20,000 nt of DNA, taken from the IMG/VR virus record IMGVR_UViG_3300025168_000065; one strand, 5' to 3'. Both the position numbers and the translations under genes were made by a program. The DNA comes from an uncultured virus (IMG/VR IMGVR_UViG_3300025168_000065) (taxonomy: Duplodnaviria; Heunggongvirae; Uroviricota; Caudoviricetes; Crassvirales). Positions 3,554 through 12,016 of this stretch are shown piece after piece. The notes under the pieces are model-generated. The model was not told the DNA's origin, made no database searches, and saw only the letters and a program-made list of their open reading frames with translations. The stretch's first letter is position 1; each line of letters begins with the position of its first letter.

Positions 3554-5149
3554 TTAATCATCTTTCCCTGCTCTGGCGTGCGTTATAATTGCATTGGTAG
3601 TAAGGATAGTCGTAGCTACACTTATTGCATTAGAGAGCGCCTGACAGGTAACCTTAGCTGGATCAATAACCCCCATCTTAAACATATCTCCCCACTCCCC
3701 TGTCTTTACATTCAATCCTTCATTATTAGCATCATACATAAGCTTTTCGTTATCATCTTCAGATAACTCTAAGCCTGCATTAGAATATATTTGCAACAAA
3801 GGCGCTCGAAGTGCTGTCGCTAAAATCTTACCTGCAATCTTATAGTTCATATCTTCAGCGAATGTAGCTTTTTTATAAAGCGCTACACCTCCCCCTGCTA
3901 CTATCCCTTCCTGTAGTGCGGACCGCACTGCACAGACAGAGTCATCGACTCTGTCGAATTTTTCTTTTTGCTCAATATCAGAGGTAGCTCCAACGTAAAT
4001 ACATCCTATACCACCAACCAAAGATGCGATACGCTCGTTCACAAAGTCTCTCTCGTGCTTAGCAGTTAGTGTTTCTTGCTGTAGTCTAAGCTCTGTCACC
4101 CTGTTCATAGTCTCCTTAGTAATCTCGCCGTTCTTAATTATTATGGCATTGTCTTTCCCTACAATAATTTTATCTGCATACCCTAAGTCCTCAGGTCTAA
4201 TCAATGATAAATCATCTCCAGTCTTTTCTGAAAAGTATTTAGCACCTACTGAGAACGCAATGTCCTGCATTAACTCATGAGACTTGTAGCCGAATGATGG
4301 CACCATGATATTACAAAACTTTAAACCATTACGCTGAACGTTAGCCGCCATAGTATTAATAACATTCTGAGAGCAGTTCCCTATGATAAGAAGCTTCTCT
4401 CCAGCATTAATAATTGGTTTAAGTACATTCTCAATCTGAAGTATGTTGGTTATCTCTGTATCACACAGCAAAACCTTAACACCCTCCATAATACACTCGT
4501 CCTTTCTCTGGTCATTAATAAACATCGTAGAGGTATAACCCCTATCAACCTTTATCCCGTTAGTAACCTCAGAATATGTTTTGTCAGTTTGAGATCTCTC
4601 AACCGTTACAATACCATCCCTACCAACTTCCTTGTAGGCCTCAGCTATAATCTTACCGATCTCTGGATCATTATTAGCAGAGATAGTCGCAATATCCTCC
4701 AGCATATCATCAGTAACTGGGATTGCTCTTTCTTTAATCTCGTCTAAAATAGCTTCTCCCTGCCATCTAATATCTCTAACTATCTCTATGGTATTATCAC
4801 CCTCCTTAATATACTTCTGACCCGCCTTTACTAAAGCCTCCGTCAAAACAATAGCCGTAGTTGTTCCATCACCAGCTACATTAGCCGTCTTCTCCGAAGC
4901 TTGCTTCATCATCCTAACCGCTAAGTTCTCTACAGGATCAATAAGAAATATACTCTTAGCCACAGTAACACCATCCTTAGTCACTGTTAACCCCTGAGTA
5001 TGCTGGGTCGATTCAATTAAAACAGTCTGACCCTGAGGCCCCAATGTTGACTTAACCGCATTAGATATTTTTGAGATTCCCGATATTAGTTTTGTTCTTG
5101 CCTGCTCATCAAACGACAGGTCTTTTGGAATGTATCCTTGTTCTTGCAT
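3554..5149 (-). CDS. groEL: Chaperonin GroEL (Cpn60), phage-encoded
   Basis: TLGPQG, TKDGVTVAK, AGDGTTTA, TISANND, EGIVAGGG and GVIDPAKV motifs; no GGM tail. Confidence 0.97.
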   Translation of the reverse strand: MQEQGYIPKDLSFDEQARTKLISGISKISNAVKSTLGPQGQTVLIESTQHTQGLTVTKDGVTVAKSIFLIDPVENLAVRMMKQASEKTANVAGDGTTTAIVLTEALVKAGQKYIKEGDNTIEIVRDIRWQGEAILDEIKERAIPVTDDMLEDIATISANNDPEIGKIIAEAYKEVGRDGIVTVERSQTDKTYSEVTNGIKVDRGYTSTMFINDQRKDECIMEGVKVLLCDTEITNILQIENVLKPIINAGEKLLIIGNCSQNVINTMAANVQRNGLKFCNIMVPSFGYKSHELMQDIAFSVGAKYFSEKTGDDLSLIRPEDLGYADKIIVGKDNAIIIKNGEITKETMNRVTELRLQQETLTAKHERDFVNERIASLVGGIGCIYVGATSDIEQKEKFDRVDDSVCAVRSALQEGIVAGGGVALYKKATFAEDMNYKIAGKILATALRAPLLQIYSNAGLELSEDDNEKLMYDANNEGLNVKTGEWGDMFKMGVIDPAKVTCQALSNAISVATTILTTNAIITHARAGKDD

Positions 5150-5182
5150 CTTGTTGTGTATTTGATTAAAATTAATTTAAAG

Positions 5183-5190
5183 CAAAGATA
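5183..5190 (-). promoter_or_regulatory. TATCTTTG promoter for groEL-groES
   Basis: caaagata about 33 nt upstream of ATG 5149. Confidence 0.7.
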
Positions 5191-5208
5191 CTAAAAATAA
5201 ATAAACAC

Positions 5209-5392
5209 TATGACAACATTTTAAGTTTTTACTTTCTATTTGTTATATATATATTTATTATTATTATTATTATTTATTATTATATATTTTAGACTTAAAG
5301 TCGTCATCTTGTCATAAATAAATATAATATATTGAAAATCAATTAGTTAGGCCCATGACGACTTTTTTTAAAGTCATCATAACTATGACGAG
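5209..5392. repeat. ATGAC(G/A)A repeat cluster around an AT-rich spacer (origin-like locus A)
   Basis: tatgacaac 5209-5217; aagtcgtcatcttgtcata 5298-5316; atgacgactt 5355-5364; aaagtcatcat 5370-5380; tatgacgag 5384-5392; almost pure A/T spacer 5218-5297. Confidence 0.7.
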
Positions 5393-5407
5393 TCTTGAAA
5401 TATTATT

Positions 5408-5440
5408 AAAAAAAAGAGGTAGACCATAAGCCTACCCCTC
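5408..5440 (-). terminator. Intrinsic terminator
   Basis: Minus strand GAGGGGTAGG-CTTATG-GTCTACCTC-T8, downstream of ORF 5468. Confidence 0.7.
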
Positions 5441-5467
5441 TCACACAACAGAACAAATAAGAAATCT

Positions 5468-5665
5468 TTAGAAGTCTAACTGCCTCCAATTCTTTTTATT
5501 TTCCGCTAACTCAATACCCTCAGCTATACGGTTTATCTTACGATCATTCTTAACCGAACGCTTAATACGAGAAGCCTGAGCTATACCCGTCTCACCATCT
5601 CTACGCTCATTTATAAGTCTTCCGTTCTTTACATATAACCCATCTACATAATCCATTTTTTTCAT
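5468..5665 (-). CDS. Small basic hypothetical protein
   Basis: ORF track; likely start MKKMDY at 5665; TATCTTTG promoter at 5684-5691. Confidence 0.7.
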   Translation of the reverse strand: MKKMDYVDGLYVKNGRLINERRDGETGIAQASRIKRSVKNDRKINRIAEGIELAENKKNWRQLDF

Positions 5666-5683
5666 AGTGCTTTTTATTTTTAA

Positions 5684-5691
5684 CAAAGATA
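5684..5691 (-). promoter_or_regulatory. TATCTTTG promoter
   Basis: caaagata; fifth identical copy upstream of a minus-strand gene. Confidence 0.7.
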
Positions 5692-6128
5692 TAAAATTTT
5701 TTTAGATGTCTCGGGGTTGAGGGTTATTATACGTTATACGCACACACATTGCCTCAGGAAATAGATTTCAAAAAGCACCCCCCCCATGACGATTTGGAAA
5801 TTTTCACCCCAACTTTTTGACGTTTTTGTATGAGCTTCCCGTATGCCGTAGGGATTCCCCTTGTACACTACCTCTATCCCTACCTTACACTCCTGTTGTA
5901 CTCTTAATGTCTACGATTACACCAATACCTTCCCCTCTTTGCAAGGGATAAAAGAGAATATATCTTTAGTTAGATAAAGAGAGATGTCTCTTAATCCCAT
6001 CCCCATCCCCAAAATACCTAAACATATCAACAAATCAATAGATCATTTCGAAAGCACGTAAGATGCTGATAATCAGTTAGTTTCATTTCATTTCATTTAT
6101 GGAACAAGATATTCTTTTGAATTTATAG

Positions 6129-6158
6129 TTGACAATCCAATTATTTATAGTATATTTG
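6129..6158 (+). promoter_or_regulatory. Promoter of the early-type gene cluster (TTG-N19-TATATTTG)
   Basis: TTG at 6129-6131 and TATATTTG at 6151-6158; Bacteroidota -33/-7 arrangement. Confidence 0.75.
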
Positions 6159-6200
6159 TACAGAATTTAAACAATTAATAACTTAAAAGACACACACAAA

Positions 6201-6347
6201 ATGGAACAAAGAGTAGAGTACATTAGACAAGAAATCAGAGTATTGAATCAAGCATTAACATTAGTAAATGAGATAGATTCTCTTTACATTAAAGAAATGA
6301 TAAAAGAAAAGGAAAAATACATTCGCCTGATGAGAATGCAAGACTAA
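6201..6347 (+). CDS. Small helical hypothetical protein, 48 aa
   Basis: Not in track. MEQRVEYIRQEIRVLNQALTLVNEIDSLYIKEMIKEKEKYIRLMRMQD; preceded by the ACACACACAAA leader. Confidence 0.75.
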   Translation: MEQRVEYIRQEIRVLNQALTLVNEIDSLYIKEMIKEKEKYIRLMRMQD

Positions 6348-6356
6348 ACCTCACCA

Positions 6357-6419
6357 ACTACCGAATGGCTCGTACTGAATTAAGTACGGGCTTTTCGTAG
6401 TAGAGGGATATTCCTCGCA
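6357..6419 (+). ncRNA. Structured intergenic RNA motif, copy 1 (long interrupted stem plus GAGG/CCUC hairpin)
   Basis: actac-c-gaa/ttcgtagt outer stem; gctcgtact/agtacgggc inner stem; gagg-gatatt-cctc hairpin; paralog at 7993-8053. Confidence 0.65.
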
Positions 6420-6438
6420 AGATTAAAACACACACAAA

Positions 6439-6921
6439 ATGAATAAGCAACAAGAAGAATTAGCAATGAGATTAGATTTAAAAACACCATACAAATGGGT
6501 AATGGATAATCTAATTCCAAACCAATCATCTGATGTACAAGAGAGATGGAAGATAATGAGTAAAATGGTAGAATTGAATCAGGAATGGGTAGAGGAAGTA
6601 GTAAACAATGGAGATTTAAAGTTATCTGAAGTATTGCATGACTTTAGAGGTATCTACTCAGAGGATGAGCATTTCGTACCAAGAATATCTACTGAAGTTT
6701 CTGATGATAGGGTTAACGGATACACTAACCTTCAAACCTACCGATTATGTTTAGTATTAGATAACGAGCAAGTAGTACCTAATCCCTTAACAAGATTCTT
6801 AGAGTTAGTACAAGAGAATGAGTTTGAATCTAATGATATTGATATTATCAATTGGAATGAGGTAATTGAGAGATACTCTGATAGCATTCTTTTAGAGCAT
6901 TCGTTTTACGCAAACAAATAA
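6439..6921 (+). CDS. Hypothetical early protein; C-terminal half has an NG(Y/W)TNxxT...LxLDNE motif seen in small phage proteins
   Basis: ORF track; ACACACACAAA leader. Confidence 0.75.
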   Translation: MNKQQEELAMRLDLKTPYKWVMDNLIPNQSSDVQERWKIMSKMVELNQEWVEEVVNNGDLKLSEVLHDFRGIYSEDEHFVPRISTEVSDDRVNGYTNLQTYRLCLVLDNEQVVPNPLTRFLELVQENEFESNDIDIINWNEVIERYSDSILLEHSFYANK

Positions 6922-6975
6922 GATACTCTGATGAGGACTCAGTGTCCGAAACACTACGCAAGTAGTGTCAGTATC
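6922..6975 (+). ncRNA. Hammerhead ribozyme, type I (HH1); predicted cleavage after C6969
   Basis: GAUACU-CUGAUGA-GGAC(UCAGU)GUCC-GAAA-CACUAC(GCAA)GUAGUG-UC-AGUAUC: complete core and three perfect stems. Confidence 0.95.
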
Positions 6976-7001
6976 ATAAGATACCAATTAACACACACAC
7001 A

Positions 7002-7211
7002 ATGACAACAAGCGAAAAAGCAGTAGAGGTACTTAAAACCAAGTACGGCATAGATGCAAGAATCTATAAGGACAATGTATACTTAGCAGTATGGAATGAT
7101 GACTTATCCGACACCATAGATGTTGAAGCGTCTAAAGGACAAGTAGAAGATTGGGCATTAGAACATGACAAAGAATGTACTTGGTATGGAGAATATAAAG
7201 CAAAGCAATAG
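7002..7211 (+). CDS. Small acidic hypothetical protein bracketed by two hammerheads
   Basis: ORF track; ACACACACACA leader. Confidence 0.8.
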   Translation: MTTSEKAVEVLKTKYGIDARIYKDNVYLAVWNDDLSDTIDVEASKGQVEDWALEHDKECTWYGEYKAKQ

Positions 7212-7212
7212 A

Positions 7213-7269
7213 GATACTCTGATGATGGATTTAATATCCGAAACTACTCTTAATTGAGTAGTCAGTATC
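7213..7269 (+). ncRNA. Hammerhead ribozyme, type I (HH2, with 1-nt U insertion after CUGAUGA); predicted cleavage after C7263
   Basis: GAUACU-CUGAUGA-U-GGAU(UUAAU)AUCC-GAAA-CUACUC(UUAAUU)GAGUAG-UC-AGUAUC; stems II and III differ from HH1 but keep pairing. Confidence 0.9.
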
Positions 7270-7296
7270 ATAAGATACCAATTTAAATAACACACA

Positions 7297-7521
7297 ATGT
7301 ATAAAACAATGGTTAAAGATTCCCAAGATTTTTGGGGAAAAGTAGCGTCCGAAAATGGATGGAGTATGAATGGTAGAGGATGTACAATATGGATTAATAA
7401 AGACAATGAAGTATTAGATAGTATCTACAACAAAGAAGATAATAAAGAATCTTATATTGTACAAGTAGATGTAGATTATGAAGGTTTCTATGAGAATGAG
7501 GTATTAATTAAAACAATATAG
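7297..7521 (+). CDS. Small hypothetical protein
   Basis: ORF track; AACACACA leader. Confidence 0.8.
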   Translation: MYKTMVKDSQDFWGKVASENGWSMNGRGCTIWINKDNEVLDSIYNKEDNKESYIVQVDVDYEGFYENEVLIKTI

Positions 7522-7523
7522 AT

Positions 7524-7682
7524 ATGAAAGATATATTAGGATTACCGATAAAATGGTTAGCAAGATACTACTACACAATATTGATAGTATGGTTAACATT
7601 AACGATGAGTAGCTGTGGATTAAGATTTGGAGACTACCATGCATGGGAAAAAGATTATAAACAAAAATGTATAAGAAAATGA
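7524..7682 (+). CDS. Small putative lipoprotein, 52 aa
   Basis: Not in track. MKDILGLPIKWLARYYYTILIVWLTLTMSSCGLRFGDYHAWEKDYKQKCIRK; hydrophobic stretch ending in lipobox-like MSS-C. Confidence 0.65.
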   Translation: MKDILGLPIKWLARYYYTILIVWLTLTMSSCGLRFGDYHAWEKDYKQKCIRK

Positions 7683-7981
7683 TGAGATTAAAATTAAGTA
7701 TGATAACATTTAATATGTTAGAGAGTCATTTCAGTAATGACTACGGGAAAAAGAATGGTAATGGTGTAGCTATGCCACTTGGAGATGATAGCTTACATAT
7801 GATTCATAATGAAGGTGCATTAGAGAATTACAAAGAGACGATAACAAAAAAGTTTGGAGATGTTATGGTGTTATTACAGGATCCTGACGAGGTATGGTTT
7901 AACAAGGTAAAGATTGATGACGGAGTATTTCAAGATTATCATAGAAAATATATGCAGAAAGCAATGAATAATAGGAATTAA
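7679..7981 (+). CDS. Hypothetical protein
   Basis: ORF track 7667..7981; start uncertain (7679 by ATGA overlap, or 7700). Confidence 0.7.
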   Translation: MMRLKLSMITFNMLESHFSNDYGKKNGNGVAMPLGDDSLHMIHNEGALENYKETITKKFGDVMVLLQDPDEVWFNKVKIDDGVFQDYHRKYMQKAMNNRN

Positions 7982-7992
7982 CGTGTGTGTTT

Positions 7993-8053
7993 CCATCATC
8001 TAACCTCACTACGAAAGTAGTGGGGATTTGGTGGTAGAGGGATGTTCCTCACA
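7993..8053 (+). ncRNA. Structured intergenic RNA motif, copy 2
   Basis: ccatca/tggtgg outer stem; cctcactac-GAAA-gtagtgggg inner stem; gagg-gatgtt-cctc hairpin; 18/20 identity with 6400-6419. Confidence 0.65.
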
Positions 8054-8071
8054 CAATTAAATTAAATTATT

Positions 8072-8563
8072 ATGAGTAGAAAAGAATTAGAAGCAAAGTT
8101 TATGGAGTTTCCTAAACTGGTAGTAGCAAAGTATGATGTAGGAGAATACATCCAAGACCAAATTAAATTCTTCCAAGATGACAAGCAAGAGTTTCTTGTA
8201 AGTAAACTATGGGATGAAGAGAGAGATGTTGAAAGTGTAACTGATAAAGAAATAGAAGAACACTTCTATGATGATGTTTGGATTAGTGTTCAATGTTATG
8301 AAGACTTTGAGTATGACTTGACTGAAGAGTTTAAAAAACACATAGGTAAAGAAGTTTATGTAGAGGGAAGAAATATGGGATGGAGAAATAGAAGTGGACA
8401 TAAATGTTTCACTATAAATAAACCATTAGACTTGTTTAAAGAAATAGCACCTGAATGTGAACTGACTTATGAAATGGAGAAAGTAACCGATAAAGAGTAT
8501 GAGGTAAGAATTGCACACCACGACTCACCAATGGGAGAATATTATAACTTAAAAATTAAATAG
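8072..8563 (+). CDS. Acidic hypothetical protein (GRNMGWRNRSG, HHDSPMGE motifs)
   Basis: ORF track; TTAAATTATT leader. Confidence 0.8.
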   Translation: MSRKELEAKFMEFPKLVVAKYDVGEYIQDQIKFFQDDKQEFLVSKLWDEERDVESVTDKEIEEHFYDDVWISVQCYEDFEYDLTEEFKKHIGKEVYVEGRNMGWRNRSGHKCFTINKPLDLFKEIAPECELTYEMEKVTDKEYEVRIAHHDSPMGEYYNLKIK

Positions 8564-8565
8564 AT

Positions 8566-8811
8566 ATGAATTGGAAAGAAATGAAAAGTAAGATACTATC
8601 AAATAGTATATTATTAGAGAAACTAAAAAAGTTTCCTAACAGAAAGTTTATTCAGAAGTGTCAGCAAAAATTAGATGCATACAAGAAACCTAAACCAAAT
8701 CCTTTAGATTGGTTTAATCATTTTGTAGATTACATTGAAAATACAGATAGCAATCTTTATAATCAAGCGTGTGAGTATGCCGACAATAAAGAAAAGCAAG
8801 AAAATGAATAG
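8566..8811 (+). CDS. Hypothetical protein
   Basis: ORF track; packed against upstream gene. Confidence 0.7.
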   Translation: MNWKEMKSKILSNSILLEKLKKFPNRKFIQKCQQKLDAYKKPKPNPLDWFNHFVDYIENTDSNLYNQACEYADNKEKQENE

Positions 8812-9559: not shown

Positions 9560-9656
9560 TTCCCCAAAATGGGGAAAGAAAGAAATAAAAATAAGTTAAA
9601 CATAATTTTGCTATTAATTGAAAAAGAATTATATTAGCAACCTAATCAAATTAAAT

Positions 9657-9950
9657 ATGAAAAAAGAAATATTTGACTCCTATGCTGAGTCAATAGCAAA
9701 GCAATTCCACCTTAGTTTAGACCAGATGTTTGATAAATCTAAGCGTAGAGATATTGTAGATGCAAGACAAATGCTTTACTACTTATGTATGGAAAGACCA
9801 ATTAGAATATCATACATCCAGAGGTTTATGAATGAGCAAGGTTTAGATGTTGCACATTCAACTATTATACATGGCTACAACAGGGCTAAAGGTATGGTAG
9901 ATAAAGATCCAGACTTTAAGAATGTAGTAAATAAACTACAAAATGTATAG
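9657..9950 (+). CDS. DnaA C-terminal (domain IV)-like HTH DNA-binding protein
   Basis: KSKRRDIVDARQMLYYL...HSTIIHG; ATG at 9657. Confidence 0.8.
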   Translation: MKKEIFDSYAESIAKQFHLSLDQMFDKSKRRDIVDARQMLYYLCMERPIRISYIQRFMNEQGLDVAHSTIIHGYNRAKGMVDKDPDFKNVVNKLQNV

Positions 9951-10359
9951 TATAGAGGAGGTTTATTCTCAATCCTTATCTGATGAGTTTTCTATACAAG
10001 TTAAAAAGCCGTTAGGATTTAGTGTAGTAAATTATGGAGTAAAGATTCAAAAGTTTAATAGTAAGATTGAATTATTAAACTGCTCTAAGAGTGGTAATTA
10101 TTTCCAAGAATTTACAGAGGATGAGTATAATTTATTTTATCAATACGGATGGAAGGAGGGAGGAGTAAGACTATCTTTATTAAATTACAAAAGAAAGTTA
10201 GATTTAGTAAACGATAAAATAAGGATAGAAATTAATACTCGAAAGAATAATAAACATATATCTAAATTAAAGTCAACAAGAGAAAATTTGTTGGTTAGAT
10301 ATGCAACCAGAAATAAACAATTAAATAAAATTAAATCAAATGAAAAAAAACATTTTTAA
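9943..10359 (+). CDS. Hypothetical protein
   Basis: ORF track; overlaps both neighbours slightly. Confidence 0.75.
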   Translation: MYSIEEVYSQSLSDEFSIQVKKPLGFSVVNYGVKIQKFNSKIELLNCSKSGNYFQEFTEDEYNLFYQYGWKEGGVRLSLLNYKRKLDLVNDKIRIEINTRKNNKHISKLKSTRENLLVRYATRNKQLNKIKSNEKKHF

Positions 10360-10942
10360 AGAATTATCTGCAGTTTCCATAAAAGGAAAGACAGATAAAA
10401 AAGGAAAGTTTGATTATATGTCTTGGGCTACGGCTTGGAGTATGATCAAGTCAGAGTACCCTAATGCACAGAGAAAAGTATATGAGTCAGAACACACTGG
10501 ATTAAACTTTTTTACTGATGGTAAGACTGCATATGTTAAGGTAGGAATTATAATTAATGATATGGAACATATTGATTACCTACCAGTTATGGATTTTAGA
10601 AATAATTCTATAACAATGGAGAAGTTAACATCTATGGATGTAAATACTGCAATACAAAGATCAACTGCTAAGGCAATTGCTATGCATGGATTAGGATTAT
10701 CATTATGGATTGGAGAGGATACAATTATAACTACTCCAGCATCTAATGTAGTTAGTAAGAATCCATTACCTACAAAGCAAAAGTCAGTACAATTAAATAT
10801 TGGAGATGCTAACTGGGATAGAGTTATGAAGTATATTGTAGATAATAAAGAGTTAGGATTACCTAAGATTGTTAAGGCACTTGAGACTAAGTATGATATT
10901 AAGGCAAGTGTTAAGAAAGAACTATCAAAGCTTATCAAGTAA
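10340..10942 (+). CDS. Sak / DUF1071 (Rad52-like) single-strand annealing protein
   Basis: YMSWATAW...LPVMDFRN...DVNTAIQRSTAKAIAMHGLGL. Confidence 0.88.
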   Translation: MKKNIFKELSAVSIKGKTDKKGKFDYMSWATAWSMIKSEYPNAQRKVYESEHTGLNFFTDGKTAYVKVGIIINDMEHIDYLPVMDFRNNSITMEKLTSMDVNTAIQRSTAKAIAMHGLGLSLWIGEDTIITTPASNVVSKNPLPTKQKSVQLNIGDANWDRVMKYIVDNKELGLPKIVKALETKYDIKASVKKELSKLIK

Positions 10943-11277
10943 TGGAAGACATTACTTTATACGATCTACTTAACTTAAAACTATCAAAGTTAACGTGGAC
11001 AGAAAAAATTCATGAGAGTAAAATTTCAAGTGAAGAAGGATTCTCTATAGAATTAGATTATTATAAAAATATTGGTAAGAATAAAGATAAAGACCAGTTA
11101 CTTGTAAATATTTACTATAAACACATAAACATAGGTGCATTTGGATCTATAGAAAAGGAAGAGTCGGACCAATTTGCTAAGTGGTTTATTGATCAATCTG
11201 AATTAATTGACAAGTCTGATGAGCAACATGAGAAATTTTTAGAGATTGAGGGTAAGGATAAATTTAAAAACTTATAG
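10942..11277 (+). CDS. Hypothetical protein inserted between SSAP and exonuclease
   Basis: ORF track; TAATG coupling. Confidence 0.75.
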   Translation: MEDITLYDLLNLKLSKLTWTEKIHESKISSEEGFSIELDYYKNIGKNKDKDQLLVNIYYKHINIGAFGSIEKEESDQFAKWFIDQSELIDKSDEQHEKFLEIEGKDKFKNL

Positions 11278-11278
11278 T

Positions 11279-12016
11279 ATGTATCAAATATTAGAAAAAT
11301 TAAAAGATGATAAGAATTATTATGGAGAGTTTGGTCAGCAGTATCTATCAAATTCTGATATAATAACTTTATTAAACGATCCTAAAGAATTTAGGAAGCC
11401 AAAGGAGGTAACAAAGGCAATGCTACTGGGGAGATATTTCCATACTGCTATGTTAGAGCCAGATAAGTTAGATTCTACTGAGTTTATAGATATAGATGTG
11501 TCAAGTAGGAATACTAAGAAGTATAAGGAAGAATTACTTATACAAAATAAAAGTATTATAATGCTTTCTAAGGAAAAGTCTGGTATTAATAATGCAATAT
11601 CTACTATGAAGAACAATTTAGAATTCTATGATGCTATTTATGATTTAGATAATACATATGAAGTACCTGCGGTACATGAAGTTATGGGTATTATGTGGAA
11701 GGGTAAGGCAGATATTGTAGCTAAGGATATGCTAATAGATCTTAAGACTACCTCAAACATCAAAGACTTTAAGTATAGCGCACGAAAATATAATTATGAT
11801 AGTCAGGCATACCTATACCAACAATTCTTCAACAAACCTCTTGTATTCTACGTTGTAGACAAGTTAACGTTGGAGTTAGGAGTCTATCATCCATCACAAA
11901 AGTTTTTGGAGTATGGAAAAGAGAAAGTAGAGCGAGCAATCGAAGTGTATAACAAATTTTATAGTAAAGATGCTAAAGAAGATATTGAAACGTACGTCAT
12001 TAAAGAGGTACTTTAA
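11279..12016 (+). CDS. PD-(D/E)XK exonuclease, RecE/DUF3799-like
   Basis: LSNSDI...MLLGRYFHTAMLEP...KGKADI...IDLKTT...YDSQAYLY; ATG at 11279. Confidence 0.85.
   Translation: MYQILEKLKDDKNYYGEFGQQYLSNSDIITLLNDPKEFRKPKEVTKAMLLGRYFHTAMLEPDKLDSTEFIDIDVSSRNTKKYKEELLIQNKSIIMLSKEKSGINNAISTMKNNLEFYDAIYDLDNTYEVPAVHEVMGIMWKGKADIVAKDMLIDLKTTSNIKDFKYSARKYNYDSQAYLYQQFFNKPLVFYVVDKLTLELGVYHPSQKFLEYGKEKVERAIEVYNKFYSKDAKEDIETYVIKEVL

What the first reader, a model, noticed from the sequence alone, without database searches (positions are those of the whole stretch)
6967..6989. Conserved post-cleavage switch hairpin (GUAUC-AUAA-GAUAC) built into both ribozymes
Seen: the 23-mer GTCAGTATCATAAGATACCAATT is identical at 6967-6989 and 7261-7283 and extends well past the ribozyme. 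Its GAUAC repeats the 5' strand of stem I, so the 3' strand can swap into a local hairpin that excludes stem I. Inference: it promotes product release, blocks religation and caps the new 5' end, or it is an off-state favoured when a ribosome terminating at the adjacent stop codon masks the 5' strand. The latter would be a translation-coupled ribozyme switch.
Basis: partly seen in the sequence, partly recalled or inferred. Interest (0 to 1): 0.7.

Follow-up and report, generated by a model that had tools for sequence, protein, structure and literature searches.

The report
Competing hairpin in phage hammerhead ribozymes
Two self-cutting hammerhead RNAs between early genes of a marine Flavobacteria phage carry an unchanging 10-base add-on that lets one strand of the ribozyme fold into a small hairpin instead, probably damping the cut and then capping the new message end.

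Summary
The 23-mer occurs exactly twice (6967-6989, 7261-7283). Each copy spans the 3' edge of a type I hammerhead plus 14 further bases. Across 77 distinct relatives all three hammerhead helices covary, so the ribozymes are genuine, although Rfam does not detect them.

The hairpin GUAUC-AUAA-GAUAC shares its 5' arm with the 3' strand of stem I, so the two folds exclude each other. Nearest-neighbour energies put them close, or favour the hairpin.

It comes from a 10-base insert found in one lineage only. Every hammerhead with stem I GAUACU/AGUAUC has it, unchanged in 54 of 54 distinct metagenome contexts, while stems II and III, their loops and the leaders vary. The 61 sister hammerheads examined lack it, including one at the orthologous site of a close relative.

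So there is strong sequence constraint but no covariation and no convergent origin. Product release needs no help, because the stem I duplex has a predicted Kd of 10-40 mM. A stop codon next to stem I is just as common in hairpin-less relatives.

My best reading is a fast-equilibrium damper of cleavage that becomes the 5'-terminal hairpin of the downstream mRNA. This would be a new variant of a known kind. Function is untested.

The parts
6919..6921 (+). TAA stop of ORF 6439-6921, directly abutting stem I of HHR1
6922..6975 (+). Hammerhead ribozyme 1, type I (open stem I). Stem I is 6922-6927 with 6970-6975, core CUGAUGA 6928-6934, stem-loop II 6935-6947, GAAA 6948-6951, stem-loop III 6952-6967, C17 at 6969. 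Predicted cut between 6969 and 6970.
   Evidence: CM R1 scores 78.5 bits. Helices covary.
6971..6984 (+). Competing hairpin 1: 5' arm 6971-6975 (shared with the stem I 3' strand), loop AUAA 6976-6979, 3' arm 6980-6984 (copy of the stem I 5' strand)
6976..6985 (+). 10-base lineage-specific insert (loop, competitor arm and one C), absent at the orthologous site of L283
6985..7001 (+). Unstructured A/C-rich leader without a Shine-Dalgarno motif; ATG of ORF 7002-7211 follows
7209..7211 (+). TAG stop of ORF 7002-7211, one base before stem I of HHR2
7213..7269 (+). Hammerhead ribozyme 2, type I. It has the same stem I and core as HHR1, an extra U at 7226, and different stem-loop II (7227-7239) and stem-loop III (7244-7261). 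C17 is at 7263; predicted cut between 7263 and 7264.
   Evidence: CM R1 scores 72.6 bits.
7265..7278 (+). Competing hairpin 2, identical to hairpin 1
7279..7296 (+). Leader of ORF 7297-7521. From 7280 it is identical to the leader that follows the hairpin-less ribozyme of L283.

Best explanation
The 23-mer has four parts: the last bases of stem III with C17, the 6-base 3' strand of stem I, an invariant 10-base insert, and the first leader bases. The insert holds a copy of the stem I 5' strand. The 3' strand can therefore pair either with the true 5' strand (active hammerhead) or with the copy (a 5-bp hairpin with loop AUAA).

The insert is an add-on of one lineage within a large modular cassette family: stop codon, type I hammerhead with a 6-bp stem I, about 17 unstructured A-rich bases, then AUG. 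These cassettes sit between small early genes of roughly 60-kb marine phages whose named relatives infect Flavobacteriia.

Most likely working:
- Before the cut, hairpin and stem I exchange quickly. The hairpin lowers the share of molecules in the active fold, which damps self-cleavage but does not block it.
- After the cut, the 6-bp stem I cannot hold the two products together and the hairpin becomes the default fold.
- The downstream mRNA then starts with 5'-OH, one free A and a 14-base terminal hairpin, which ends 17-20 bases before the AUG.

Shown here: the element exists, the two folds exclude each other, the insert is invariant while its neighbours vary, and it is restricted to one lineage. 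Inferred: any effect on cleavage rate, on irreversibility of the cut, or on stability or translation of the downstream message.
For: Genuine hammerheads: across 77 distinct relatives 97.9% of cells pair. 15 of 17 pairs change on both sides. The covariation score is 0.663, against 0.143 when shuffled and at most 0.087 when slid.

Competition with stem I:
- HHR1 MFE is -18.8 kcal/mol with stem I, against -18.6 for the hairpin centroid; the HHR2 MFE has the hairpin.
- Mean stem I pair probability falls from 0.90-0.92 to 0.42-0.61 in 11 of 11 hairpin-type ribozymes once 32 downstream bases are added.
- With a 20-base 5' flank, the constrained ensembles give stem I 0.14 against hairpin 0.78 for HHR1, and about 0 against 0.98 for HHR2.

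Product state: the hairpin adds -3.7 and -3.9 kcal/mol to the two 3' products, and the product duplex has a Kd of 10-40 mM.

Constraint on the insert:
- All 10 hammerhead rows among the 18 distinct stretches found with the 5' strand GATACT carry the identical 3' block.
- With the 10 positions left free, 11 of 11 viral hits and 54 of 54 distinct metagenome contexts are unchanged.
- The same 54 show 22 stem-loop II variants, 14 stem-loop III variants, 21 leader variants and all 4 bases at N7.
- By my count from the lists, loops II and III show at least 15 variants within stem classes, against 0 in the AUAA loop.

Spacing from CCAA to ATG is 14-17 bases in 54 of 54.

Host RNases: an RNase E/G family protein scores over the cut-off in 41 of 41 Flavobacteriales genomes.

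Synthetic parallel: RiboJ is a hammerhead plus a downstream hairpin that stays on the message 5' end, and it raised expression. I read passages of PMC6206723.
Against: The insert never varies, so no covariation can support the hairpin as a structure.

It has a single origin. It is absent from 41 sister hammerheads in viral contigs and 20 in genome contigs. It is absent from the orthologous site in L283, in front of the same gene and with the same stem III and leader. It is also absent from three sister stem I families in all of IMG/VR. It is therefore dispensable for the cassette.

A 5-bp A/U-rich hairpin of -3.9 kcal/mol is a weak cap and cannot be a kinetic trap.

A 5'-OH end is, from recalled knowledge of E. 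coli RNase E, already a poor activator of RNase E/G. RNase J scored over its cut-off in 0 of 41 Flavobacteriales genomes, so the need for a cap is doubtful.

The hairpin model does not explain why the loop AUAA and the following CCAA are invariant. That invariance points to a sequence-specific reader or to a constraint at the DNA level.

Nearest-neighbour energies ignore hammerhead tertiary contacts and Mg2+.

There is no RNA evidence of cleavage: one search gave only short, low-depth contigs.
Confidence: 0.45

Rival explanations
1. No RNA function of its own. The insert is the junction relic of a tandem hammerhead duplication. It survives because the conserved blocks at the ribozyme edges act as short-homology handles for exchanging gene cassettes, and are homogenised at the DNA level by the phage's own recombination system.
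For: The insert equals the 9 bases ATAAGATAC that precede and open the ribozyme in 9 of 54 contexts, window HHR1 included. AGTATC followed by ATAAGATAC is what the junction of two tandem units would read.

Recombination inside the ribozymes is evident:
- Stem II, stem III, leader and downstream gene occur in many combinations.
- L318 is a chimera: the 5' half of the UAUACU family joined to the hairpin-type 3' half.
- L006, L008 and L017 carry an orphan 13-base 5' fragment 52 bases upstream of a full ribozyme.
- The same gene follows a hairpin-type ribozyme in the window and a hairpin-less one in L283.

The window encodes a Sak-like annealing protein and an exonuclease.
Against: There are 0 changes at 540 free sites (54 contexts of 10 positions), while adjacent leaders and the ribozyme's own loops carry point variants. 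That is hard to get without selection on the insert itself. In hairpin-less families the conserved block stops at stem I plus AA, and the leader varies from there. No true tandem junction was seen among the 14 IMG/VR ribozyme loci with the 18-mer.
Confidence: 0.2
2. The hairpin is a sequence-specific docking site for a phage or host protein. This could be a translational operator or an antitermination-type hairpin on the nascent early transcript, in the manner of lambda boxB (recalled). Overlap with stem I would then be secondary, or would make binding depend on cleavage.
For: The loop AUAA and the flanking CCAA are invariant in 54 of 54 contexts, while loops II and III vary. A pure structural competitor would not need that. 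The element sits at a fixed 17-20 bases from the start codon. It lies in the early small-gene region upstream of the replication genes.
Against: No candidate binding protein was found: the neighbouring ORFs have no Pfam or PHROG family. The palindrome occurs only at the two ribozymes in the window. Sister cassettes work without it.
Confidence: 0.15
3. Translation-coupled ribozyme switch. A ribosome terminating at the abutting stop codon masks the stem I 5' strand and favours the hairpin (off). A ribosome starting at the AUG 17-20 bases past the hairpin would melt the competitor arm and favour stem I (on).
For: The stop lies at -3 or -2 from stem I in 31 of 54 hairpin-type contexts, and within 7 bases in 51 of 54. 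The spacing from competitor to AUG is tightly kept. The two folds are near-isoenergetic.
Against: Stop adjacency is just as common in hairpin-less relatives: within 5 bases in 24 of 41. The roughly 17-base spacing from helix to AUG is also shared. Neither feature is therefore linked to the hairpin. A 5-bp hairpin re-equilibrates too fast to store a ribosome passage (inference). There are no data on translation.
Confidence: 0.12
4. The main role is product release and blocking religation by the hammerhead.
For: The hairpin sequesters the stem I 3' strand immediately after the cut. Natural hammerheads with tertiary contacts ligate far better than minimal ones, according to review text in PMC6155905.
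Against: The 6-bp A/U-rich stem I is predicted to bind in trans with a Kd of 10-40 mM, so the products part anyway. Forty-one sister ribozymes with equally short stem I have no such device.
Confidence: 0.08

Closest known systems
Clustered hammerhead ribozymes flanking genes in phage and prophage genomes (Perreault et al. 2011, PMC3088659; passages read; supplements not seen)
   Same: Several hammerheads of one polarity lie between short genes of a phage transcript and are thought to cut long transcripts into gene-length messages. The core and three helices are the same.
   Different: The examples there are mostly type II or stabilised by a pseudoknot. Here the ribozymes are type I with a 6-bp open stem I, no loop II to flank pseudoknot signal, a fixed stop-ribozyme-leader-AUG layout, and, in one lineage, an invariant competitor hairpin. 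I found no such hairpin described.
RiboJ synthetic insulator (satellite tobacco ringspot virus hammerhead plus a 23-nt hairpin; PMC6206723, passages read)
   Same: A self-cutting hammerhead is followed by a hairpin that remains at the 5' end of the processed message, upstream of the translation start. The result is a standardised 5' end.
   Different: RiboJ's hairpin is a separate element and does not reuse a ribozyme strand, so it does not compete with the active fold. RiboJ is engineered for E. coli with a Shine-Dalgarno site.
Natural hammerheads damped by an alternative structure: barley yellow dwarf virus satellite RNA (Miller and Silver 1991, seen only as a title in the reference list of PMC6155905; not held), and alternative folds of viroid hammerheads (recalled)
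   Same: A built-in alternative pairing lowers the share of molecules in the active hammerhead fold.
   Different: Those belong to circular replicating RNAs, where limited cleavage preserves full-length circles. Here the setting is a DNA phage mRNA, and the competitor is a 10-base insert next to a start codon.
5'-terminal stabilising stem-loops of bacterial mRNAs, such as the ompA leader (recalled)
   Same: A hairpin within one or two bases of the 5' end; hosts with RNase E/G.
   Different: Here the end is created by a ribozyme and bears 5'-OH, the hairpin is weak (-3.9 kcal/mol), and no stability data exist.

Membership tests
Hammerhead ribozyme, type I | Conserved core: CUGANGA, GAAA, and a cleavage triplet ending in a non-G base (here GUC) | tested here: met
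   Both window copies match. N7 varies U/A/G/C among relatives, as the consensus allows.
Hammerhead ribozyme, type I | Three helices around the core, supported by covariation; stem I open, stems II and III closed by loops | tested here: met
   77 distinct sequences: 97.9% paired, 15 of 17 pairs with changes on both sides, and 6 of 6 stem I pairs covary across subfamilies. The alignment was fitted to the model, which leans towards the structure.
Hammerhead ribozyme, type I | Match to a curated Rfam hammerhead model | tested here: not met
   0 matches at gathering score. The best is RAGATH-1-hammerhead, 18.2 bits against 56.3, at E up to 10 on 401 bases. I read this as a gap in the models, given the core and the covariation.
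Hammerhead ribozyme, type I | Self-cleavage at the predicted site | not testable with these tools
   RNA-library contigs were short and of low depth and cannot show ends.
Hammerhead ribozyme, type I | Tertiary contact between loop II and the stem I region | tested here: inconclusive
   Loop II to 3' flank complementarity is no higher than with shuffled loops: 2.81 against 3.10, and 3.02 against 2.93. Non-Watson-Crick contacts cannot be tested.
Conditional ribozyme or RNA switch | Two mutually exclusive folds of comparable stability | tested here: met
   These are predictions only.
Conditional ribozyme or RNA switch | Alternative fold supported by covariation in relatives | tested here: not met
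   The hairpin never varies, is absent in sister families, and has no analogue.
Conditional ribozyme or RNA switch | An identified trigger (ligand, protein, ribosome) that shifts the balance | not testable with these tools
   No aptamer-like domain is present. Stop and start spacing is shared with hairpin-less relatives.
5'-terminal stabilising stem-loop | Hairpin within a few bases of the mRNA 5' end | tested here: met
   One free base, then 14 paired or loop bases in the predicted 3' product. This holds only if the ribozyme cuts.
5'-terminal stabilising stem-loop | Host has a 5'-end-dependent RNase, and the hairpin lengthens message half-life | tested here: inconclusive
   RNase E/G is present in 41 of 41 Flavobacteriales genomes and RNase J in 0 of 41. 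Half-life is not testable.

The most novel reading that the evidence does not exclude
The invariant insert turns a constitutive phage hammerhead into a ribosome-gated one. A ribosome ending the upstream gene at the abutting stop codon hides the stem I 5' strand and parks the 3' strand in the hairpin. A ribosome loading on the downstream start, 17-20 bases past the hairpin, opens the competitor arm and licenses the cut. Each early-gene cassette would then be severed from its neighbour only once it is itself being translated. This would be a natural protein-free, ligand-free ribozyme switch read by the translation machinery.
Probability: 0.1. Interest if true: 0.8.

Novelty: new variant of a known kind. 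Interest (0 to 1): 0.45.

Why it matters
What bacterial and phage hammerheads are for is still called an open question in the field (review PMC6155905, passage read).

This family gives a very regular natural layout: stop codon, hammerhead, about 17 unstructured bases, then a start codon. It occurs in phages of hosts that do not use Shine-Dalgarno sites, and in dozens of interchangeable versions.

One lineage adds a 10-base competitor that has not changed in 54 contexts from many samples. Natural pairs of cassettes with and without the insert exist in front of the same gene. That makes a clean experiment possible on whether ribozyme cutting is tuned, and on what a ribozyme-made 5' end does for a message. 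The layout is also a natural counterpart of the RiboJ insulator used in synthetic biology.

These ribozymes are missed by Rfam, so similar cassettes are likely under-annotated.

Tried and rejected
- Rfam: nothing at gathering score. At E up to 1 the only match is a chance L20-leader hit at 5402-5500. A weak RAGATH-1-hammerhead match appears at E up to 10.
- Phage GenBank records: no DNA match to 5800-8600. The window's own assembly is not held.
- Covariation of the hairpin: no variants exist when the 10 positions are left free. Result: 11 of 11 viral hits and 54 of 54 metagenome contexts unchanged.
- Convergent competitors in the AGUAUU, AGUAAC and AGUAUA families: 10, 3 and 2 pattern hits, none with a hammerhead upstream.
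- DNA operator idea: GTATC-N4-GATAC with up to 2 mismatches gives 13 sites against 8.1 expected, and the only perfect copies are the two ribozyme sites.
- Promoter and terminator scans of 5000-8200 are at chance level.
- Loop II to 3' flank pseudoknot: no signal over shuffled loops.
- RNA evidence: four RNA-library runs gave 11 short contigs at depth 2-7 from relatives. Two contigs begin 6-10 bases upstream of the predicted cut sites. One contig of a relative runs across a ribozyme. Contigs cannot show ends, so nothing follows about cleavage.
- Bacterial genomes: the 19-mer is absent from 185,579 species genomes.
- Both stems II and III differ between the two copies in 8 of 8 loci that carry two hairpin-type ribozymes. 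By my estimate from the variant frequencies this is expected by chance about 1 time in 8, so I draw nothing from it.
- Earlier notes of this scan for this genome or sequence: none.
- Miller and Silver 1991 could not be read.

Full report
**1. Observation**

The 23-mer stands at 6967-6989 and 7261-7283 with no mismatch and no third copy at up to 3 mismatches. None of 200 shuffles gave two copies. A hammerhead core pattern matches twice in the window, at 6928-6975 and 7219-7269. Only 0.03 matches are expected, and 0 of 200 shuffles gave two.

Read against the sequence, each copy consists of:
- the last base pair of stem III and the cleavage base C17;
- the six bases of the stem I 3' strand;
- fourteen further bases.

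The bases GATAC at 6980-6984 and 7274-7278 repeat the first five bases of the stem I 5' strand at 6922-6926 and 7213-7217.

**2. The ribozymes are real**

The two window copies share stem I and the core but differ in stems II and III by compensating changes. I built a covariance model from 10 sequences. It found 126 matches, 77 of them distinct, in 90 sources.

On that alignment:

| Measure | Observed | Control |
|---|---|---|
| Cells paired | 97.9% | 23.0-47.8% slid; 69.6% shuffled |
| Pairs changed on both sides | 15 of 17 | 11.0 shuffled (1 of 500 shuffles reach 15) |
| Covariation score | 0.663 | 0.143 shuffled; at most 0.087 slid |

The alignment was fitted to the model, which leans towards the structure. 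The margin is nevertheless large.

Rfam does not see these ribozymes. There are 0 matches at gathering score. The best is RAGATH-1-hammerhead at 18.2 bits against a gathering score of 56.3.

**3. The setting**

The window encodes the following:
- a GroEL-like chaperonin;
- a Sak-like annealing protein;
- an exonuclease;
- an 800-residue primase-like protein (phrog_28855);
- a helicase.

The primase-like protein has 427 relatives in viral contigs, many on contigs of about 60 kb. All named phages that match it infect Flavobacterium, Nonlabens/Persicivirga, Polaribacter, Cellulophaga, Maribacter or Bacteroides. Of 20 hammerheads with the same layout in genome contigs, 15 lie in bins or single-cell assemblies labelled Flavobacteriales, Weeksellaceae or Bacteroidetes. 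The host is therefore very probably a marine member of the Flavobacteriia. This fits the leaders, which lack a Shine-Dalgarno motif.

**4. A modular cassette family**

Pooling viral loci gave 52 distinct hammerheads after I dropped one false positive, L257. All share these features:
- a stem I of 5-7 base pairs, mostly 6;
- A-rich unstructured bases right after it;
- a first ATG 13-31 bases after stem I, most often 17, in the hairpin-less ones.

The stop codon of the upstream reading frame lies within 5 bases of stem I in 24 of the 41 hairpin-less cases. In 31 of those 41, the first 32 bases of the predicted 3' product have no predicted structure at all.

Clustered hammerheads that flank phage genes are known (PMC3088659, passages read). 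This regular type I layout in Flavobacteria phages did not turn up in my searches. I did not look at the supplements of PMC3088659, which may hold related examples.

**5. The hairpin belongs to one lineage and never varies**

- *Same 5' strand.* Of 18 distinct stretches in IMG/VR that match the 5' strand GATACT plus core, 10 are hammerheads. All 10 carry the identical 3' block. The other 8 are chance matches in coding DNA.
- *Ten positions free, viral contigs.* A pattern leaving the ten positions after GTCAGTA free, anchored on CCAATT, found only 11 stretches, all on contigs already known.
- *Ten positions free, metagenome contigs.* The same idea, anchored on CCAA, gave 54 loci. These hold 54 distinct contexts with enough flank, and all 54 have the same ten bases.

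The same 54 contexts show:

| Feature | Variants |
|---|---|
| Stem-loop II | 22 |
| Stem-loop III | 14 |
| Leader | 21 |
| Core position N7 | all four bases |
| Downstream protein N-terminus | 29 |

Within classes that share a stem, I count at least 12 extra loop II sequences and 3 extra loop III sequences in the lists. The AUAA loop has none. Over 9 loop positions against 4, a simple Poisson estimate (my inference) makes zero changes unlikely, at roughly the one-in-a-thousand level. The insert is therefore under purifying selection at least as strong as that on the ribozyme loops.

**6. It is an insert, and a dispensable one**

L283 holds a hammerhead in front of the homologue of ORF 7002-7211. 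It has the same stem III as window HHR1, stem I AAUACU/AGUAUU, and a leader identical to that of window HHR2. It has no hairpin. The difference is a 10-base indel between stem I and the leader.

None of the 28 model matches in 50 related phage records has the insert. Neither do the 20 hammerheads in genome contigs. Hairpin-type and hairpin-less ribozymes coexist in the same records.

Searches for an analogous competitor after the three commonest sister stem I sequences gave 15 hits, none of them a hammerhead. There is thus one origin, no convergence and no covariation.

**7. Energetics**

- *81-base folds.* HHR1 has stem I in the MFE (-18.8 kcal/mol) and the hairpin in the centroid (-18.6). 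HHR2 has the hairpin in the MFE.
- *Adding 32 downstream bases.* Mean stem I pair probability drops from 0.90-0.92 to 0.42-0.61 in 11 of 11 hairpin-type ribozymes. Most hairpin-less ones stay level or rise.
- *With 20 upstream bases and enforced pairs.* Stem I holds 0.14 of the ensemble and the hairpin 0.78 in HHR1. The figures are about 0 and 0.98 in HHR2, where a small upstream hairpin also ties up part of the 5' strand.
- *After cleavage.* Stem I as a duplex between the products is predicted at -2.7 and -2.0 kcal/mol, a Kd of 10-40 mM. The hairpin adds -3.7 and -3.9 kcal/mol to the 3' products.

These numbers ignore tertiary contacts and Mg2+. They suggest three things:
- The hairpin is a real competitor before the cut.
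- It cannot be a lasting trap, because five A/U-rich pairs re-equilibrate quickly (inference).
- Product release does not need it.

**8. Reading**

I take the element as a bistable stem I/hairpin module. It damps cleavage in a pre-equilibrium. After the cut it becomes the 5'-terminal hairpin of the downstream message, one base from a 5'-OH end and 17-20 bases from the AUG.

Flavobacteriales genomes have an RNase E/G family protein in 41 of 41 searched and RNase J over its cut-off in 0 of 41. A 5' hairpin could matter for RNase E/G. However, a 5'-OH end is already a poor activator (recalled), so the benefit is uncertain.

The synthetic RiboJ part has the same order of elements and raised expression. 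Its authors suggest that the remaining terminal hairpin may stabilise the message (PMC6206723, passages read).

**9. What this reading does not explain**

The invariance of the loop and of the CCAA that follows calls for a sequence-specific reader or a constraint at the DNA level.

Recombination inside these ribozymes is evident:
- Parts occur in many combinations.
- L318 is a chimera.
- L006 has an orphan 5' fragment upstream of its ribozyme.
- An RNA-library contig of a relative joins parts of HHR1 and HHR2 in front of the ORF 7002 homologue.

The insert equals the nine bases that precede and open the ribozyme in 9 of 54 contexts. That is what the junction of a tandem duplication would look like. 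I therefore give sizeable weight to two rivals: a relic kept as a recombination handle, and a protein site.

The translation-coupled switch remains possible. Its anatomical basis is shared by the hairpin-less relatives.

**10. Verdict**

This is a new variant of a known kind: phage intergenic hammerheads, now with a built-in invariant competitor hairpin. The mechanism is inferred, not shown. Interest is moderate.

Earlier notes of this scan independently raised the RiboJ analogy and the idea of swappable leader modules in other genomes. I used them as leads only.

Noticed in passing
window 3554-5149 (-): A 531-residue GroEL-like chaperonin gene in a phage genome (phrog_5725, E 2e-134).
   Followed up: no
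window 10340-10942 and 11246-12016 (+): A Sak-like single-strand annealing protein and an exonuclease. This recombination pair could use the short conserved blocks at the ribozyme edges for cassette exchange.
   Followed up: no
window 7209-7223 (+): In HHR2 the bases around the TAG stop can pair with the end of the stem I 5' strand and the first core bases (AGAG-AUA-CUCU). This is a second small competitor, present in the MFE. The same 5' flank occurs in 5 of 54 contexts.
   Followed up: partly
L006:410-516 (-), also L008 and L017: An orphan 13-base hammerhead 5' fragment (stem I 5' strand plus CUGAUGA) lies 52 bases upstream of a complete ribozyme. It looks like a scar of recombination.
   Followed up: no
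L318 (metagenome locus): A chimeric ribozyme. The 5' flank and 5' strand are of the UAUACU family, and the 3' half is hairpin-type. This leaves a U-C mismatch at the outer stem I pair.
   Followed up: no
L002:314-409 (+) and L023 (- strand, ribozyme of 89 bases): Stem III carries inserts of about 45-55 bases in two relatives, so that arm tolerates cargo.
   Followed up: no
L369, L372, L381, L383, L384, L386, L387, L394, L401, L408, L409, L416, L420, L421: Hammerheads with stem I AAUACU/AGUAUU (AGUACU in L401) and a similar 5' flank. They sit before small genes starting MKK or MKN in Flavobacteriales-type bins and single-cell assemblies. They may be phage contigs binned with hosts, or chromosomal copies.
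   Followed up: no
window 6922-6975 and 7213-7269: Rfam release 15 has no model that detects this type I hammerhead family at its gathering score. Such cassettes will be missed by routine annotation.
   Followed up: partly
window 9618-9950 (+): A small ORF with a DnaA C-terminal helix-turn-helix domain (PF08299, 36.2 bits against a cut-off of 31.5).
   Followed up: no
window 5412-5442 (-): A 14-pair terminator-like hairpin with a T run. It also caused the chance L20-leader match.
   Followed up: no
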